A program made the position numbers and the translations under genes. Positions 4,371 to 32,400 of a stretch of 40,691 nt of DNA are shown one piece after another. How positions within the stretch are numbered: position 1 is the stretch's first letter; each line of letters begins with the position of its first letter. Source of the DNA: Catajapyx aquilonaris. Taxonomy: Eukaryota. The DNA lies in contig KZ538914.1 in the NCBI GenBank assembly GCA_000934665.2, positions 1 to 40,691 of the forward strand, in the 5' to 3' direction. Under the pieces are notes generated by a model. That model was not told where the DNA came from, made no database searches, and saw only the letters and a program-made list of their open reading frames with translations.

Positions 4371-7300
4371 GTGAGTACCACTCCAAGCTTTTTTTTTGGG
4401 GGGGGGGGGGTCAGGTGGAGGAAAAGATCGATTTTTGTACTCGCCTAGAAATGGAGATCAATGAGGACGAATACCGAAAACTCCTACTCATCTTCACCAA
4501 ATAGCATTCCTTCTTAAGTCATGCCTTTCATTCCTTTCGAGTCTGCCCAACGATCGTTTTGGCCTTTTTCTTATAACTCTAGCCCTCCTTAGACGATTGA
4601 AAGTGACCTATAGGTCGTTGAGAGGACACTGGTTTGTTTTTGGACGCGGTATGCTAACACGACAAACCTTCTAGCTCCTGTAGTTCAGTGGTAGAACACA
4701 TGCTCGATTGCGAGTGTGGAACCTGGGTTCGATTCCCAGCAGGAGCGACGCCGGTTTGCTGGTAAAATTAGGGTGTGTCGCAGGAAATTTTTGAACTTGA
4801 GTCGCATATTTCTAGATTGTTCTCTCCACATAGTTGTTGCGGTTACTAAAACTTGGGAGAAATCTAGGTGCATCTTGACTATGAGTGACAACTGTGGTAA
4901 CGTAGAGTAAAGCCCGTCTTACACGACAATGTTCCATGAGAATGTTGGTTGTACAGTCCTTAAAGGGACACTCCATTCAAAAAACAAGTTTGTCTCTAAA
5001 AATCGGGCAAAAAATCCTGAATCCGAAGGTGCAATCCGTTTTTCGCTACGCGGAACGGTAATCCCAGGGCGAGGTGTCAAAGTGTGTCGTCTGCTAATGA
5101 GCGGCGCCGCCACGCGGGAAACAGGGGAACTGGAGGGCTGCACCGCTCTGGGATGGGCCTAAGCGCGCGGGCAGGCGGGAGCAGCCCTCCAGTTCCCAAG
5201 GTCCCGAGGGCGTCGCTGGCGGACGGCCAGCTTCTAGCGCACTATTTGAATTTCCCCACTTTGACCCGTCGCCCTGGGATTACCGTTCCGCGTAGCGAAA
5301 AACGGATTGCACCTTCGGATTCAAGATTTTTTGCCCGATTTTTAGAGCCAAACTTGTTTTTTGAGTGGAGTGTCCCTTTAAGAGAACGTCGTGTAAACGG
5401 GCCTCCTGCAACAGCCAATAGATGGCATTAGCAGTTCGCGCCATCTGTTAGGAGTGACCTCCGGGTACTGTCTATCCCCGCCGGTTTTGTCCTATTCCGT
5501 CCACAGGGACAACGAGAGTGGAAATTTGCTGGACAACCTCCTGTCCCGTATGGAGCAGTATGCTAACAATCTGGAGAGTCTGGTGGAGGAGAGAACGGCC
5601 GACTACTTGGAAGAAAAGCGCAAGTGTGAGGAGCTGCTCTACCAGTTGCTGCCCAAATCTGTAGCCAGTCAGCTGATCGCGGGTCAGCCAGTCATCGCTG
5701 AGACCTTTGACCAGGTCACTATCTACTTCTCGGATATTGTGGGCTTCACGTCTTTATCGGCAGCTAGCACACCTATGCAGGTGGTCAACCTTCTCAACGA
5801 CCTCTACACCTGCTTTGACTCCATCATTGAAAATTTTGACGTCTACAAGGTGAGTCAGTTTGTGAAACAATTGTAAATACAATGCTAATGATTGACATCA
5901 CTGCAGGAATTTTTAGGGAAGGGGTTTTTTCATTACGCTCTGGTATGCATGCAAAACAAGTACCGCGGTATGGGTTTTGCAATAGCTATGTAAGGGATGA
6001 TCAAATTCCTGACGACATGCAACAGGGGAACATTTTTCATTATGCCACTGCACTGGGTGGAAGCTCCGGGATAAGAGAACTGATCAATTAACGCACAAAA
6101 TGCCTCCTAATAAGCTTACCGGGTTTAATTATTGGCTAGCTTGCACTAGGACAATGACACACGCGCATGATACTGCACGTATCGGCACAAAAAGTCCAAC
6201 ATGCATATTCACTGATCGTGTGTACTTGCACATATGTTAGCCCATCCCTCACATTCTATTCTTAAATTTGATGATTTTTATACTTTTTCGAGAGAAAAAG
6301 TCTTATAGAACTGCTCTGTCTGTCTGTCTGTCCGTGGACAGGTATCAGACAGACAGCCGTGCTATAAGACTTTTTTTCGATTTTCGGGTTCTGGGTTCAC
6401 TCTATCCGCCCCCTCCCCAGATCACCCTTTCCCCCCTCCCTCCTCCTAACCCCTGATACCTGATACCTGTTTACAGACAGACGGACAGAGCCGTGCTATA
6501 AGACTTTTTGGGGGACAATAGCAGTAAACATGAAAAAGTCTACTCTAATCACGCTCACGTGATTTGCCAATCTTTTTTTTTTGCCGATTGGCTGATCCAA
6601 GAAATATCCACTTATCCTTTAGGTCTATCTCAGACTATCTCCGATATTTCTGCCTAAATTGAAGTTAGTTGACAGCAAAATAAAATCTACTGACACTTTG
6701 GAGGTAATAGTGAGAAACGGGCAGCTCAGAAACGCTAGGATTCATCATCTTCCTCCTAAATTTAAGCCTCTCCAACATTTTTTTCCTTCCTGAGGAAATC
6801 ATCTGCACCATTCCGTGAAACTCGTTTTCTTTAACCAGAATACGGATGAAATCCAAAATCGATATTTCCCCCCCCCCCNCGTCAACCCCCTTCAAATGTC
6901 AGTGAATCCTTCCATCCTGATATCACACAGTTCAATGGCCATGACAAGCTGTCAGACATCTAATACACAAAAATGCAGCTCCAATTCTCCCAACTCATAC
7001 GGATGAGTTGACTAGATCACCCTGTATAGTATTACGAACCGAGTGCAATCAGTCTGGCCAATGATCAGATCGGGACTGGTGACAGGGTACTTCAAATCTT
7101 CAACAAAAGTGCAAAGACTTGTTTTCCAGGTGGAGACAATAGGTGACGCATACATGGTGGTTTCGGGTCTCCCTGTACGCAATGGCCTATCTCATGCCAG
7201 AGAGATTTCCCGTATGGCCCTGGCCCTTCGCAACGCAGTCATGAAGTTCACGATTCGACACCGACCTAAGGACCAACTTAAACTACGCATAGGCTTGCAC

Positions 7301-29400: not shown

Positions 29401-32400
29401 CCCCTTTAACATGAGCCCCCCTTAAAGGTAGAACCTTGACTTTTGTGAACCTTTGTTTTCACAGGCAGAAAAAATTACAAGCAAAAGATATCCCCTAATA
29501 AATTACCAAAGATGCTTTTGCTAGGTATCCTAAGCCAGTTACAACATATTTTGTCTTACTGATGCTTCAGTGCATATGAACCTGTTTTATAAAAGTTATG
29601 TCTTGCTCATCTGCATTCATAACAATGAAAAGCTCCTAGGTACTTGAATCACATTGGTAAAAATGTACACAAATGCAACAAAAATACCAAATACTGTCTG
29701 CAGTTTCCCCCAAAAACAAAAATGGAAAAGCCATGAGTACTACGTGTCACCTTACAATATTTGCTTGCTCTACTAAAAACTGCAACAGAATAAAAACCAT
29801 TTGAGGCCAAATGATCCCACCGAGATTTGAACTCGGACCACTCGACTCAAGAGTCCAGTGTGCTAACCGTTACACCATGGAATCGCACTGGCCTCTCTGG
29901 ATATTACGTATCATGCATTAAAGAACACACTTACTTGCTTGGATTCAGAATCTAAATATTAAAATATTGAAGTAAAACAGTACCTAAAGATCGGGGCCAA
30001 GAACACACAGATGTCTCTAATGTGGACGGGAATGTTGAGAAGTGAGAGCACGTAGTGAATGCTTCCTGAAGTGATCATGAGGCCAGGGTACACTGTGCCA
30101 CCAACAATGCGACCCAGAGGGTACCAGGCCCTCTCGTCAAACCAGTTCAGGAAGTTGTAGAAGCCATGTTGTACCATGTACGCAGTGGAACGGAAGTTGA
30201 ACCTGTTGAAGAATAACACCATGTTAACACCCAAAAATACAAAGATAACACTTGATCAACTTGCCCTTCAACGTCTTAAAACAGTTCTGTAACATTTTGG
30301 GGCAGGGGCACACATGTGACATGCACATCCCTGTCTAGGGGCCATCCATATACAACACCTGATTTTCATCATTCTTAAAGGGGCACTCCTTCAACAAATG
30401 GGCACCATAAATCAGGCAATGATTGGATTTTAATTGTGAAAGCACTTTCTCACAACTTAAAGGTAACCCCAGGGCGCAAGGTCAAAGTTGGCTGGAACGC
30501 TATCATCTATTGGCTAATGACGTGGCAGTACTGAAAGCGAGATCTGAAGAGTCACAGTCAGCTTCACCTCACAACCCTTGACCCTGGGAGAGAATCAGTG
30601 AGTCAACTGCCTCTGCACCTTTGCTGAAGTGTTACTGATTTATCCCCTTGCCTGATGAACAACATGATGCATTGCTCCTGACCTTGACCTCTCTTTCTCT
30701 CATCCTGGGGTTACCCTCTGCTTTGATAAAAACCAATCACACTCCCAGAATTCAGATTTATTGCTTTATTTTTAGTGCCAACTCCCCCACATAAGATAAT
30801 CACAAACAGCTCCAGTCCCCCCCACCCTCTCAAAAATTATGTCATGCTAACTATGGAAATCCCCTTTTTTGTTTTTCATCTCATAAATTTAGGAAATTTA
30901 GGAAAATTTTTGATTGATGTACTGAACATATGTGACAAACAGAAGAGGAGGGCAGGGTGTCATTCTTTGAACACACCCATGGCACGCGATAAATAACAAT
31001 TTATAAGGGCGACACGGTGGCGGAGTGGTTAGCGCTGCAGCCTTCCACCTCTAAGGTCCCGAGTTCGATCCCCGGGTTGGACGGAGGATACTTATGTGGA
31101 TAGAGTTTCAAAGGGTGCTCTCCGTATTCACGTGGGTTTTCTCGGGGTTCTCCCGTTTCCTCCCGCAATTTAAATCCATCACAGCACAGGCAATGATTAA
31201 AGACGGTTATTCAAAAGATGATCCCCTAAGAGGCCTAACACAGGGTATCCATTATTCTTATTCTTATTCTTATTATTATTATTATTATTATTATTATTAT
31301 TATTATTATTATTATTGAATAACAATTTATAAATGTTCAATAAATTTGCCACTAATTGTTCAGGACTCATATGCTTGTCATGGAGGAAAATATTCACTAC
31401 CGCGAGTGATGTCAACATGACACGTGGTGAGTGCTTGCAGTTGGTCGGCAGGTGTGGAACTAGCCTGCCTGTCAGCCAGCTGGATTCAGAACACACGACC
31501 CTCTTGATGTCAGGAGAGTTATGCTCGCGTGCCAGAGGCCTGGAGAGCAAAATTCTCAAGCTGGCCTTGGTTCGAACTAGTCTAAACACCAGTTTTCCAT
31601 GGCTACATGATGAAACATGCTCCATGCTCTCTAGCAACTACAAGCTAATATACCACACTGTCTGGAAAACAGCAGCCATTGAAGAGACCTAAATTCATGG
31701 CCGCCACCCCCCCCCCCCCCNAACAGACATGTGTCAATGTTCTAGGCGAAATATTTGCAGACACAAGCATAGGGTCTTGTTAACTTTTATTTTGGCATTC
31801 CAGCATGACTTCACAATCAAGCATCCACATCATCATGCTGGCATCAACTGTCCCCTAAGAGGCATTTATAGATGCCCAAGTTGACTTCCACCTTTGAATG
31901 GTGATCAAGCATACATGTGTCTACTTGTAGAGTTAAAGTACAGCTACTTTCAGGAGTTCACATTATTATCATTAGCTGCTAACAGGACATCTTGAAGCAC
32001 TGTCTAGCTTGCCAACGAATTGGTGTAACTATTGACGGTAAGGGGCAATATATGAAATTTTTTTGTCACTTTTTGTACAAAATGTCTCTCTGCAATGATT
32101 AACATGCAGCCTCCTGCAACTTATATTTTTATAACTTTAAAGTAACTGTTTACTACTTAGCAGCTTAGTAGTGATTATCACTAATACTTCAGTTGGAAAA
32201 GGCAATCATCAGAATCGTAAACACGGGTATGTCAGTACCACCATTTCCATCTCAATACGAATTCCATGAAGCCTATGATATGTGTGACTCAACCAGCGCC
32301 GGATTTAAGGCAAGGCAACCTAGGCAGTTGCCTAGGGCAGCAGATTTCAAGGGGCGGCAAATTTAGGCATACAAAAAAAAAAGTGAGTGAAAAATTAATA

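What the first reader, a model, noticed from the sequence alone, without database searches (positions are those of the whole stretch)
4674..29884. Possible class of intronic, sense-strand tRNA-like RNAs with anticodon arms converted to tetraloop hairpins
Seen: the only two complete cloverleaves I found in 40 kb come from different parental tRNAs (Gly-like and Gln). They share the same anomaly: an expanded anticodon arm that can form a 7-8-bp stem with a 4-nt loop while the other stems stay paired. Both lie 100-300 nt downstream of a 5' splice site on the host's sense strand. Inference: convergence on one architecture suggests a genome-wide family of non-decoding tRNA-shaped elements, perhaps affecting host pre-mRNA processing or chromatin, or a mechanism that neutralises dispersed tRNA copies. 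n=2, so coincidence is possible.
Basis: inference. Interest (0 to 1): 0.75.

Follow-up and report, generated by a model that had tools for sequence, protein, structure and literature searches.

The report
Two non-decoding tRNA-like genes in introns
Two tRNA-shaped sequences inside introns of an animal's guanylate cyclase and STT3B genes are real, but they look like non-decoding offshoots of ordinary tRNA genes, one from a small dispersed family, not a new splicing-linked class.

Summary
Both cloverleaves are real. ARAGORN and Rfam find exactly these two tRNA hits in 40.7 kb (52.9 and 50.3 bits). Both have oversized anticodon loops (10 and 8 nt) that can close into hairpins with 4-nt loops. Both lie on the sense strand of host introns: 303 nt after the donor in a receptor guanylate cyclase, 99 nt after it in STT3B.

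The "new class" reading is only partly supported.
- **Element 2** is a decayed tRNA-Gln copy. Against 12 canonical tRNA-Gln genes it has a 1-nt loop insertion, A38G and a stem-breaking C41G, plus 7-10 changes elsewhere. Its hairpin is matched by 15 of 200 shuffles.
- **Element 1** differs. DNA contigs of the same organism show roughly 12-21 further copy-equivalents sharing only the tRNA body. All listed differences lie in the anticodon arm and variable loop. Its closest relative (three differences; very deep in a probable RNA library) reads as a 72-nt Ile(GAU)-like tRNA but folds best as an 8-bp hairpin.

So element 1 belongs to a small tRNA-like family. The resemblance to element 2, the sense orientation and the donor proximity (post-hoc p about 0.02, n=2) are best explained by chance and ascertainment. 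No genome was held, so the genome-wide test was not run.

The parts
4674..4747 (+). Element 1: 74-nt tRNA-shaped sequence with perfect 7-bp acceptor, 4-bp D and 5-bp T stems and a 10-nt 'anticodon loop'
   Evidence: ARAGORN; Rfam RF00005 52.9 bits; fold; present with its flanks in an independent contig of run X1 (record 1, 4300-4997, 2 other letters)
4699..4718 (+). Element 1 anticodon-arm hairpin: 8 bp (two G.U) closed by AUUG
   Evidence: arm alone -9.9 kcal/mol, z -3.54, 1 of 200 shuffles as good; every difference to paralogous contigs that the tool listed lies at 4701-4720
4788..4792 (+). First T run (T5) downstream of element 1, 41 nt after its 3' end; possible Pol III terminator
   Evidence: its role as terminator is inferred
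4371..5506 (+). Host intron (1136 nt) of a receptor-type guanylate cyclase, GTGAGT donor to CAG acceptor; also holds a very high-copy inverted-repeat element at 4956-5406
   Evidence: sequence; Pfam on the flanking exons; depth
4189..4370 (+). Upstream exon: end of the kinase-homology domain
   Evidence: PF07714 27.4 bits; ORF. The start coordinate is where the open frame begins; the true acceptor was not mapped
5507..5849 (+). Downstream exon: dimerisation/HNOBA region and start of the cyclase catalytic domain (3' end approximate)
   Evidence: PF00211 64.9 bits and PF07701 24.4 bits; the domain continues at 7016-7312 (PF00211 57.5 bits)
29812..29884 (-). Element 2: 73-nt tRNA-Gln-derived cloverleaf with an 8-nt anticodon loop
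   Evidence: ARAGORN; Rfam 50.3 bits; alignment to 12 tRNA-Gln genes
29841..29858 (-). Element 2 anticodon arm: 1-nt insertion in the loop, A38G and C41G relative to 12 of 12 reference tRNA-Gln genes; can fold as 4 bp / G.G / 4 bp (the outermost pair takes one base on each side of this span) around CUUG
29792..29796 (-). T5 run 16 nt after element 2's 3' end; possible Pol III terminator
   Evidence: role inferred
22288..29983 (-). Host intron 2 of STT3B (7696 nt); also holds one copy of an unrelated SINE-like repeat (24049-24262)
   Evidence: tblastn exon map; donor read; repeat
29984..30201 (-). STT3B exon 2, immediately upstream of element 2's intron
   Evidence: 89% identity to P0006 residues 58-129; PF02516 77.3 bits

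Best explanation
Both elements are stand-alone, Pol III-type offshoots of tRNA genes that can no longer decode. Their position in sense-strand introns near donor sites is incidental.

Element 2 is a decaying copy of tRNA-Gln. It has a 1-nt insertion in the anticodon loop, A38G and a stem-breaking C41G, plus changes elsewhere that spare the stems.

Element 1 is one locus of a small dispersed family, roughly 12-21 further copy-equivalents, of tRNA-body-sized units with unique flanks. In this family the region between the A and B boxes is a self-complementary hairpin. Element 1 differs from the best-documented relative by three changes, all in the loop or variable region.

If transcribed, each would be made from its own internal promoter, terminated at the T5 run and trimmed by RNase P and RNase Z into a tRNA-shaped RNA that cannot read codons.

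Shown: the structures, the abnormal loops, Gln ancestry, the multi-copy family with single-copy flanks, the absence of an encoded CCA, the T5 runs. Inferred: Pol III transcription, end processing, lack of aminoacylation or decoding, and no role for the host gene.
For: - Only two tRNA hits in the window, both with non-7-nt loops.
- Element 2 scores 50.3 bits, below all 12 reference tRNA-Gln genes (54.3-70.9 bits).
- Against the nearest references (L004, L018b), element 2 has 3 differences in the 18-nt anticodon arm and 7 in the other 55 nt, so there is no concentration in the arm. One arm change (C41G) breaks a pair of both the canonical stem and the proposed hairpin. The hairpin is matched by 15 of 200 shuffles.
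- Element 1 depth: flanks 27.4 / 27.1 / 16.6 in X1 / X2 / X3, against 614.6 / 560.3-560.4 / 367.5 at 4701-4705 and 357.7 / 351.7 / 212.8 at 4709-4718.
- The variant contigs each have about single-copy depth: 7 contigs sum to 207.3 in X1 and 6 sum to 107 in X3. They therefore look like paralogous loci of the same genome.
- Bins 4628-4668 and 4751-4791 stay at single-copy depth, and the X5 contigs turn unlike the window at 4673/4676 and 4742/4743. The repeat unit is the tRNA body alone.
- No encoded CCA follows either element, and T5 runs lie 41 and 16 nt downstream.
- Base rates: 56% of intronic C. elegans tRNA genes share the host's orientation (PMC4999229, passage). tRNA pseudogenes are numerous and turn over quickly in animal genomes (PMC2888827, abstract and passages).
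- Ascertainment (inference): a cloverleaf search can only find dead copies whose acceptor, D and T arms are intact, and it tolerates insertions in the anticodon loop. Detectable non-functional copies are therefore enriched for exactly this lesion.
Against: - All 16 difference rows that the tool listed inside element 1 (5 substitutions, 11 indels) lie at 4701-4720. The variant contigs end 31-35 letters from the variant site, as expected if the flanking 31-mers are shared exactly between copies. That looks like constraint or concerted evolution on the outer arms, not free decay. Caveat: 58 substitution rows and 12 indel rows were not shown by the tool, and the X5 contigs do differ in the last 4-5 nt of the acceptor strand.
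- The closest relative has mean word depth 2298 in run X5, where the neighbouring exon has 10-14 and the very high-copy repeat has 27-217. X5 covers the exon and not the intron, so it is probably RNA. If so, a family member is abundantly expressed.
- That relative keeps a perfect 8-bp hairpin. This is hard to get by chance.
- Element 2 has a compensatory G2:C71 to A2:T71 change, and none of its 7 outer differences breaks a stem. These may simply be the species' own tRNA-Gln sequence.
- The donor-proximity product test gives p=0.023.
Confidence: 0.6

Rival explanations
1. Element 1's family is a functional, non-decoding tRNA-shaped RNA. These would be Pol III genes under selection for the acceptor, D and T arms (promoter boxes, RNase P/Z recognition, stability) with the anticodon arm replaced by a closed 8-bp hairpin whose small loop is free to vary. 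Element 1 would be a member or a recent dead copy. Element 2 is unrelated decay.
For: - About 12-21 further copy-equivalents are limited to the tRNA body. All listed differences fall at 4701-4720, and the contig ends suggest exactly shared 31-mers on both sides.
- The closest relative keeps the 8-bp hairpin with a 3-nt loop.
- The substitutions listed at 4709-4711 would keep the closing pair as G.U if they sit in one contig. This is my reading; the linkage between rows is not shown.
- That relative has depth 2298 in the probable RNA library X5.
Against: - A few contigs carry indels within the stem (4701, 4702, 4705, 4706, 4707), which would break the hairpin.
- Element 1's exact sequence has no contig in X5. 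Contigs drop rare variants, so this is weak.
- The kind of library for X5 is not on record, and the depth is a mean over a contig of at least about 580 nt.
- ARAGORN can also read the relative as a 72-nt tRNA-Ile(gat), though with C33 and a G.A mismatch. It could be an odd but real tRNA with element 1 as its pseudogene.
- No sequences of the paralogues could be retrieved.
Confidence: 0.25
2. One reading: a class of intron-borne, sense-strand tRNA-shaped elements that act in cis on the host pre-mRNA or on chromatin, in the manner of nimtRNAs or the GUT15 tRNA-like sequence.
For: - Both elements are in sense introns, 303 and 99 nt from the donor (product test p=0.023).
- Precedents exist. nimtRNAs raise splicing efficiency depending on cloverleaf structure and position in the intron (PMC7722341, abstract and passages). 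The GUT15 intronic tRNA-like sequence, whose anticodon region also cannot form a 5-bp stem with a 7-nt loop, inhibits splicing of its intron (PMC6152437, abstract and section 5).
Against: - n=2 and the test was chosen after seeing the data.
- Both have intact box A/B-like sequences and their own T5 runs, unlike GUT15, which cannot be transcribed by Pol III.
- In the nimtRNA study, a cluster of nuclear tRNAs in the reporter intron decreased mRNA. In Arabidopsis, canonical intronic tRNA genes did not affect host splicing.
- The two X5 relatives of element 1 have flanks unlike each other's and unlike the window's. Whether those loci are intronic is unknown.
- The one SINE-like copy inside a gene (24049-24262) lies antisense to STT3B.
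Confidence: 0.06
3. They are heads of tRNA-derived SINEs, or retro-pseudogenes of mature tRNAs.
For: The window does hold a SINE-like repeat with a box-B-like GGTTCGATCCC motif in 3 copies. tRNA-derived repeats are common in animal genomes (PMC2888827).
Against: - Element 1's flanks are single-copy right up to the tRNA borders.
- Neither element's flanks recur in the window.
- No CCA follows either 3' end.
- The SINE-like copies are not detected as tRNA even at E<=10, whereas the two elements score 50-53 bits.
- For element 2, no read data could be laid, so SINE membership is not excluded genome-wide.
Confidence: 0.03
4. They are working tRNAs with enlarged anticodon loops, either four-base (frameshift-type) decoders or reassigned decoders like the yeast mitochondrial tRNA-Thr1 with its 8-nt loop.
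For: ARAGORN reports four-base anticodons. Functional tRNAs with an 8-nt loop exist (PMC4267643; only the search listing's abstract was seen).
Against: Element 1's loop is 10 nt in the canonical register and closes into a hairpin that buries the 'anticodon'. Element 2 has a G.G mismatch in the anticodon stem and scores below all 12 reference tRNA-Gln genes.
Confidence: 0.02

Closest known systems
tRNA pseudogenes and tRNA-like loci of undetermined isotype in animal genomes (the class that tRNAscan-SE flags as pseudo or undetermined)
   Same: Stand-alone units the size of a tRNA body, with unique flanks, no encoded CCA and an intact cloverleaf outline but no valid anticodon loop. Such loci are numerous and turn over fast in eukaryotes (PMC2888827, abstract and passages).
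   Different: Element 1's family appears to keep the outer arms exact while the middle varies, and its middle is a perfect 8-bp hairpin rather than a randomly damaged arm. One relative is very deep in a probable RNA library.
GUT15 intron-encoded tRNA-like RNA of Arabidopsis (PMC6152437)
   Same: Lies on the sense strand in an intron. It has canonical acceptor, D and T stems and a well-kept T loop, and its anticodon region cannot form the 5-bp stem with a 7-nt loop (section 5).
   Different: GUT15's A box is disrupted, and the RNA is made from the Pol II host transcript, not by Pol III (abstract). It is a single plant locus in a lncRNA. Here box A/B-like sequences and T5 runs are intact, and nothing is known about processing.
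[quoted passage not shown]
   Same: Intronic tRNA-shaped elements that do not serve as tRNAs. Their cloverleaf and intron position matter for an effect on splicing (abstract).
   Different: They derive from mitochondrial tRNAs inside numts and lack nuclear-type D and T loops. The two elements here have nuclear-type loops, and element 2 is plainly cytosolic tRNA-Gln-like. In that study nuclear tRNAs had the opposite effect in the reporter.
mascRNA / menRNA tRNA-like ends of MALAT1 and NEAT1 (Rfam RF01684)
   Same: A tRNA-shaped RNA with a non-decoding anticodon arm, cut out by RNase P and RNase Z (the processing route is recalled, not from a call).
   Different: Element 1 scores 25.3 bits against a gathering score of 42.5. 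mascRNA sits at the 3' end of vertebrate lncRNAs, not in introns of coding genes. Element 2 gives no hit.
Functional tRNAs with an 8-nt anticodon loop (yeast mitochondrial tRNA-Thr1; PMC4267643, listing abstract only)
   Same: An enlarged anticodon loop in an otherwise normal cloverleaf.
   Different: Those decode and have intact stems. Here one stem is mismatched (element 2) and the other loop is 10 nt and self-paired (element 1).

Membership tests
Canonical cytosolic tRNA gene (decoding) | Cloverleaf with 7-bp acceptor, D arm and T arm, scoring above the Rfam tRNA threshold | tested here: met
   RF00005 52.9 and 50.3 bits against 29; ARAGORN; fold (element 2's D arm appears only in the Infernal alignment)
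Canonical cytosolic tRNA gene (decoding) | 5-bp anticodon stem with a 7-nt loop | tested here: not met
   Element 1: 10-nt loop, or 8 nt in ARAGORN's register with an A.A mismatch. Element 2: 8-nt loop plus a G.G mismatch. 12 of 12 reference tRNA-Gln genes have the 7-nt loop.
Canonical cytosolic tRNA gene (decoding) | Pol III unit: internal A and B boxes and a T run shortly downstream | tested here: inconclusive
   Box-like sequences were read by eye against a recalled consensus. T5 runs lie 41 nt (element 1) and 16 nt (element 2) downstream. There are no transcription data for these two loci.
tRNA-Gln lineage (element 2) | Sequence homology to tRNA-Gln over the D arm, anticodon stem and T arm | tested here: met
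   Alignment to 12 tRNA-Gln(ctg/ttg) genes gives 10-14 differences in 73 nt. The T arm matches by the design of search; the D arm and 5' anticodon stem match independently of it.
   No tRNA-Gly reference was compared. The first 25 nt are identical to a Thr(cgt), an Ile(gat) and a cta-anticodon tRNA. The closest relative reads as Ile(gat).
tRNA-derived SINE | tRNA-related head followed by a body and tail shared among copies | tested here: not met
   Element 1: depth falls to single-copy immediately outside 4669-4750, and the X5 relatives' flanks are unlike the window's. Element 2: no repeat of its flanks within the window; genome-wide not tested.
Retro-pseudogene of a mature tRNA | Encoded 3' CCA | tested here: not met
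   Element 1 is followed by ACG and element 2 by TTT. Target-site duplications were not searched for.
mascRNA/menRNA (RF01684) | Score at or above the family's gathering threshold | tested here: not met
   Element 1 scores 25.3 bits against 42.5, E 0.54. Element 2 gives no hit.
nimtRNA / mitochondrial tRNA look-alike | Derivation from a mitochondrial tRNA inside a numt | not testable with these tools
   No mitochondrial genome of the organism is available. Against it: in the DNA runs the relatives of element 1 have about single-copy nuclear depth, and element 2 matches cytosolic-type tRNA-Gln.
Intronic cis-acting splicing element | Effect on host splicing; positional and strand bias genome-wide | not testable with these tools
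   No genome is held, no RNA holder is listed, and n=2.

The most novel reading that the evidence does not exclude
This animal carries a dispersed family of roughly a dozen to twenty Pol III genes for a tRNA-shaped RNA. The acceptor, D and T arms are kept exact, while the anticodon arm is a closed 8-bp hairpin with a variable 3-4-nt loop. At least one member is abundantly expressed. That would be a non-decoding tRNA mimic with a cellular role of its own, for instance as an RNase P/Z or CCA-enzyme substrate, a protein decoy or a TFIIIC-bound chromatin mark. Element 1 would be an intronic member.
Probability: 0.22. Interest if true: 0.65.

Novelty: new member of a known kind. Interest (0 to 1): 0.35.

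Why it matters
For annotation, both loci should be flagged as tRNA-like or pseudo and not counted as tRNA genes. The 'four-base anticodon' calls should not be read as frameshift suppressors.

The biological interest lies in element 1's family. Suppose its outer arms really are held constant while the hairpin loop drifts, and a member really is abundant as RNA. It would then be an invertebrate case of a tRNA mimic comparable to mascRNA or the GUT15 RNA. It would also be directly testable by tRNA or small-RNA sequencing.

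The proposed link to introns and splice donors rests on two loci and would need a genome-wide census before it deserves attention.

Tried and rejected
- **Earlier findings:** nothing for this genome or for either sequence. The word search returned four prokaryotic split-tRNA cases that do not bear on this.
- **RNA runs:** no RNA holder listed. X5's kind is not on record, and I only infer RNA from its exon-only cover.
- **Read laying:** only one stretch could be laid (one call, at most 20 kb; the elements are 25 kb apart). I chose 4300-5500, so element 2 has no read evidence at all.
- **Public-collection scans:**
  - Element 1's 25-nt 5' part in metagenome contigs gave 3 loci. All are ordinary tRNAs of other isotypes and none is a family member.
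  - Element 2's 27-nt T-arm/acceptor stretch gave 0 hits in GTDB genome contigs and 0 in viral contigs.
  - The shorter 21-nt T-arm stretch gave 15 loci with 17 tRNA genes. I used the 12 tRNA-Gln genes as references and dropped the other 5 (3 Pro, 1 Met, 1 Glu). These contigs are labelled bacterial or archaeal MAGs. I suspect the Gln genes are eukaryotic contaminants (they match my recollection of animal tRNA-Gln), but I did not test that.
- **SINE head** rejected for element 1 (single-copy flanks). **mascRNA membership** rejected.
- **tRNA intron** rejected by arithmetic: only 1-3 extra nucleotides.
- **Mitochondrial origin** of element 1's family was considered, because GAU is the organellar and bacterial Ile anticodon. 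It was set aside because the DNA contigs have nuclear single-copy depth.
- **Organism identity:** the STT3B fragment finds at most 79% identity among the 120 listed hits. I say only that it is an invertebrate-like animal.
- **Second X5 contig (depth 113):** not reconstructed, because its substitutions would fall below the listing threshold.
- **Literature:** searches found no description of a multi-copy hairpin-anticodon tRNA-like family in an invertebrate. These four word searches do not show that none is in print.

Full report
**What is there**

ARAGORN finds two tRNA genes in the 40,691-nt window. One is at 4674-4747 (+) and one at 29812-29884 (-). Both are 'tRNA-???' with four-base anticodons, cgat and cttg. 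Rfam at gathering threshold finds the same two and nothing else: RF00005 at 52.9 and 50.3 bits against a cut-off of 29. With the permissive threshold (E<=10), 24 matches are listed, none a further tRNA. Element 1 also gives a sub-threshold match to mascRNA/menRNA, 25.3 bits against 42.5. ARAGORN at 95% and 90% of its thresholds still returns only these two; at 85% it adds five weak calls.

Folding gives these results:
- **Element 1:** the minimum-energy structure is a complete cloverleaf with an 8-bp anticodon arm (two G.U) closed by AUUG. Energy is -32 kcal/mol, z -3.46, and 0 of 200 shuffles fold as well. For the arm alone, 1 of 200 shuffles is as good.
- **Element 2:** the centroid keeps the acceptor and T arms and a 4 bp / G.G / 4 bp arm closed by CUUG. 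z is -1.97, with 8 of 200 shuffles as good. For the arm alone, 15 of 200.

Only element 1's hairpin is clearly better than chance.

**Context**

The + strand around element 1 encodes a receptor-type guanylate cyclase:
- 4189-4370: end of the kinase-homology domain (PF07714).
- 5507 to about 5849: HNOBA region and start of the cyclase domain (PF07701, PF00211).
- 7016-7312: the cyclase domain continues.

The intron runs from the GTGAGT at 4371 to the CAG ending at 5506, 1136 nt. Element 1 starts 303 nt into it.

The - strand holds STT3B. Pfam PF02516 matches exon 2. A homology search gave 5743 proteins at E<=1e-30, with the best identities among the 120 listed at 78-79%. A tblastn exon map puts exon 2 at 30201-29986 and exon 3 from 22287. 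The donor GT is at 29983 and the intron is 7696 nt. Element 2 starts 99 nt into it. Both elements are in the sense orientation.

**Is the placement more than chance?**

Two of two in sense has p about 0.25. In C. elegans, 56% of intronic tRNA genes share the host's orientation (PMC4999229; I saw the discussion passage, not its S3 figure). Taking each element's fractional distance into its intron (0.267 and 0.0129), the product test gives p=0.023. The statistic was chosen after the fact and rests almost wholly on element 2. I treat this as unproven.

**Element 2**

A 21-nt stretch of its T arm retrieved 15 loci from the GTDB genome collection. These hold 17 tRNA genes, 12 of them tRNA-Gln (ctg or ttg) in 10 loci. 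I aligned all 12 and left out the 5 others.

All 12 have the 5-bp stem and 7-nt loop. Element 2 differs from every one by three changes in the arm: an extra nucleotide in the loop, A38 to G, and C41 to G. Outside the arm it differs at 7-10 positions:
- G2:C71 has become A2:T71, a compensatory pair.
- Position 69 is a G that keeps a wobble pair.
- The rest lie at unpaired positions (16, 26, 47, 73 in element 2's numbering).

Against the nearest references there are 3 differences in 18 arm positions and 7 in the other 55, so the arm is not singled out. The tetraloop extension needs only the insertion and A38G, because U33 and A37 are already complementary in tRNA-Gln. C41G puts a G.G mismatch in the middle of the supposed hairpin. 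Element 2 scores 50.3 bits, below all 12 references (54.3-70.9).

This is what a drifting tRNA-Gln copy looks like. The stem-sparing outer changes may be the species' own tRNA-Gln sequence, which I could not obtain.

**Element 1**

No genome is held. Four runs of the same coded organism hold the region: X1-X4 are DNA contigs from one sample, and X5 comes from another study with kind not on record. I laid X1, X2, X3 and X5 on 4300-5500 at 80% likeness.

A 1281-nt X1 contig spans 4300-4997 with 2 other letters, so element 1 with its flanks is real. This may be the sample the window was assembled from.

Summed contig depth:

| Region | X1 | X2 | X3 |
|---|---|---|---|
| Flanks | 27.4 | 27.1 | 16.6 |
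| 4701-4705 | 614.6 | 560.3-560.4 | 367.5 |
| 4709-4718 | 357.7 | 351.7 | 212.8 |

That amounts to roughly 20-21 further copy-equivalents over the 5' part and about 12 over the middle. The variant contigs each have about single-copy depth and scale with the run. For example, 7 contigs sum to 207.3 in X1 and 6 sum to 107 in X3. I therefore read them as paralogous loci of the same nuclear genome. The tool itself warns that summed depth is not a copy number.

The bins just outside the element (4628-4668 and 4751-4791) stay at single-copy depth. The repeated unit is the tRNA body alone, not a SINE.

Inside the element, every row that the tool listed lies at 4701-4720, that is, the anticodon arm and variable loop:
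- 5 substitution rows: 4706 G>T, 4709 T>A, 4710 G>A, 4710 G>T, 4711 C>T.
- 11 indel rows: 4701, 4702, 4705+T, 4706, 4707+C, 4709, 4710, 4711, 4711+G, 4718, 4720.

The variant sites lie 31-35 letters from the contig ends. I take that as the signature of k=31 'bubble' pieces that rejoin sequence shared exactly with other copies.

Three caveats apply:
- 58 substitution rows and 12 indel rows for the whole stretch were not shown.
- Only contigs at least 80% alike are laid.
- The two X5 contigs turn unlike the window at 4673/4676 and 4742/4743, so the end of the acceptor stem does vary.

**The closest relative**

In X5 the exon 4300-4381 has depth 10-14 and the intron has none, apart from the element and the repeat at 4956-5406. 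The very high-copy repeat has only 27-217 there, against 10^4-10^5 in the DNA runs. So X5 behaves like an RNA library, which is my inference.

In X5 two contigs match the element, with depths 2298 and 113. Both run on for 255 or more unlike letters on each side. Neither has element 1's exact sequence. The deep one differs from element 1 by T4709 to A, loss of 4710 and loss of one A at 4720.

Applying those three changes to the window copy in a script gave two readings:
- ARAGORN reads a 72-nt tRNA-Ile(gat), with C at position 33 and a G.A mismatch in the stem.
- RNAfold's minimum-energy structure is the cloverleaf with the same 8-bp hairpin, now around a 3-nt loop (-30.9 kcal/mol).

So the hairpin is shared with element 1's closest relative, which suggests a family trait. 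Element 1's private changes (one substitution, one inserted base in the loop, one in the variable loop) all lie between the promoter boxes. The 'Gly-like' label is not supported. The first 25 nt of element 1 are identical in a Thr(cgt), an Ile(gat) and a cta-anticodon tRNA from metagenome contigs.

**What it is not**

- **Not a SINE head**, for element 1 (single-copy flanks). The window's own SINE-like repeat is a different sequence: 24049-24262, 36684-36929 and 37513-37707, with a box-B-like motif. Rfam does not see it as tRNA.
- **Not a retro-pseudogene of a mature tRNA:** no CCA follows either element.
- **Not a mascRNA family member**.
- **Not an intron-containing tRNA:** only 1-3 extra nucleotides.
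- **Not a mitochondrial copy**, as far as depth in the DNA runs tells.

**How it most likely works**

Both elements keep tRNA-type box A and box B sequences (judged against a consensus I recall). Each has a T5 run, 41 nt (4788-4792) and 16 nt (29796-29792) downstream. They could be transcribed by Pol III independently of their hosts and trimmed by RNase P and RNase Z. Neither could present an anticodon.

I put 0.6 on the ordinary reading. Element 2 is a dying tRNA-Gln copy. Element 1 is a member, or a dead copy, of a small tRNA-like family. The intron setting is coincidental. The shared look arises because a cloverleaf search can only find dead copies whose lesion sits in the one arm the model lets vary.

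I put about 0.25 on element 1's family being a functional non-decoding tRNA mimic.

**Comparison with what is known**

- The closest precedent in form is the GUT15 intronic tRNA-like RNA of Arabidopsis. It has canonical acceptor, D and T arms, and its anticodon region cannot form the 5-bp stem with a 7-nt loop. It is made from the Pol II host and inhibits splicing of its intron (PMC6152437, abstract and section 5).
- nimtRNAs are intronic tRNA-shaped splicing enhancers of mitochondrial origin. In that study nuclear tRNAs in the reporter lowered mRNA (PMC7722341, abstract and passages).
- tRNA pseudogenes are abundant and short-lived in animal genomes (PMC2888827).

I file the finding as a new member of a known kind, tRNA-derived non-decoding loci. 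Element 1's family is the part worth a follow-up.

**Limits**

- Element 2 has no read evidence.
- The sequences of the paralogues were not retrievable.
- X5's nature is inferred.
- The reference tRNA-Gln genes come from other organisms.
- The genome-wide test remains undone.

Noticed in passing
window 4956-5406 (same intron as element 1): Inverted-repeat, MITE-like element. Summed contig depth is 10^4 to 1.7x10^5 against 27 for the flanks in the DNA runs, which implies hundreds to thousands of copies. One contig joins 4995 to 5349 on opposite strands. The two arms also show up as mirrored ORF translations.
   Followed up: partly
window 24049-24262, 36684-36929, 37513-37707 (+): Three copies (78-81% alike) of a SINE-like repeat. 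Its 5' part has box-A/B-like motifs, including GGTTCGATCCC, but it is not detected as tRNA by Rfam even at E<=10. The first copy lies antisense in STT3B intron 2; the other two lie upstream of STT3B.
   Followed up: partly
window 35334-35415 and 35429-35500: Two near-perfect palindromic hairpins that hit miRNA families below threshold on both strands (mir-2985 40.5/39.5 bits, mir-581 41.2 bits). They sit just after a 129-N assembly gap at 35043-35171 and are probably parts of a foldback or MITE element.
   Followed up: no
window 2978-3761: A cluster of direct and inverted repeats 75-90% alike, with a long hairpin that gives a sub-threshold MIR821 match (46.2 bits against 249). It looks like another foldback element.
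   Followed up: no
window 8818-10753 and 11076-12181: Local segmental repeats: 9087-9796 against 10058-10753 (81% over 736 nt), 8818-8987 against 8995-9164, and 11076-11311 against 11945-12181 (88%).
   Followed up: no
window 10757-10853, 31233-31325, 37052-37173; also 13780-13822, 22488-22529, 32716-32755: Long trinucleotide (AAT/ATT-type) and dinucleotide (GA/TC-type) microsatellites that cross-match each other in the self-comparison.
   Followed up: no
window 4382-4416: A T-run followed by a G-run right after the guanylate cyclase donor site. Contigs of two of the three DNA runs break or thin out here (depth 3.97 and 2.42 against about 27 and 17). The assembly may be unreliable at this spot.
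   Followed up: no
L002 (metagenome contig Ga0172373_10067170), 1-543: Seven Rfam tRNA hits packed into about 540 nt, including the tRNA-Ile(gat) that shares element 1's first 25 nt and its acceptor stem. This is a dense tRNA array of unknown origin.
   Followed up: no
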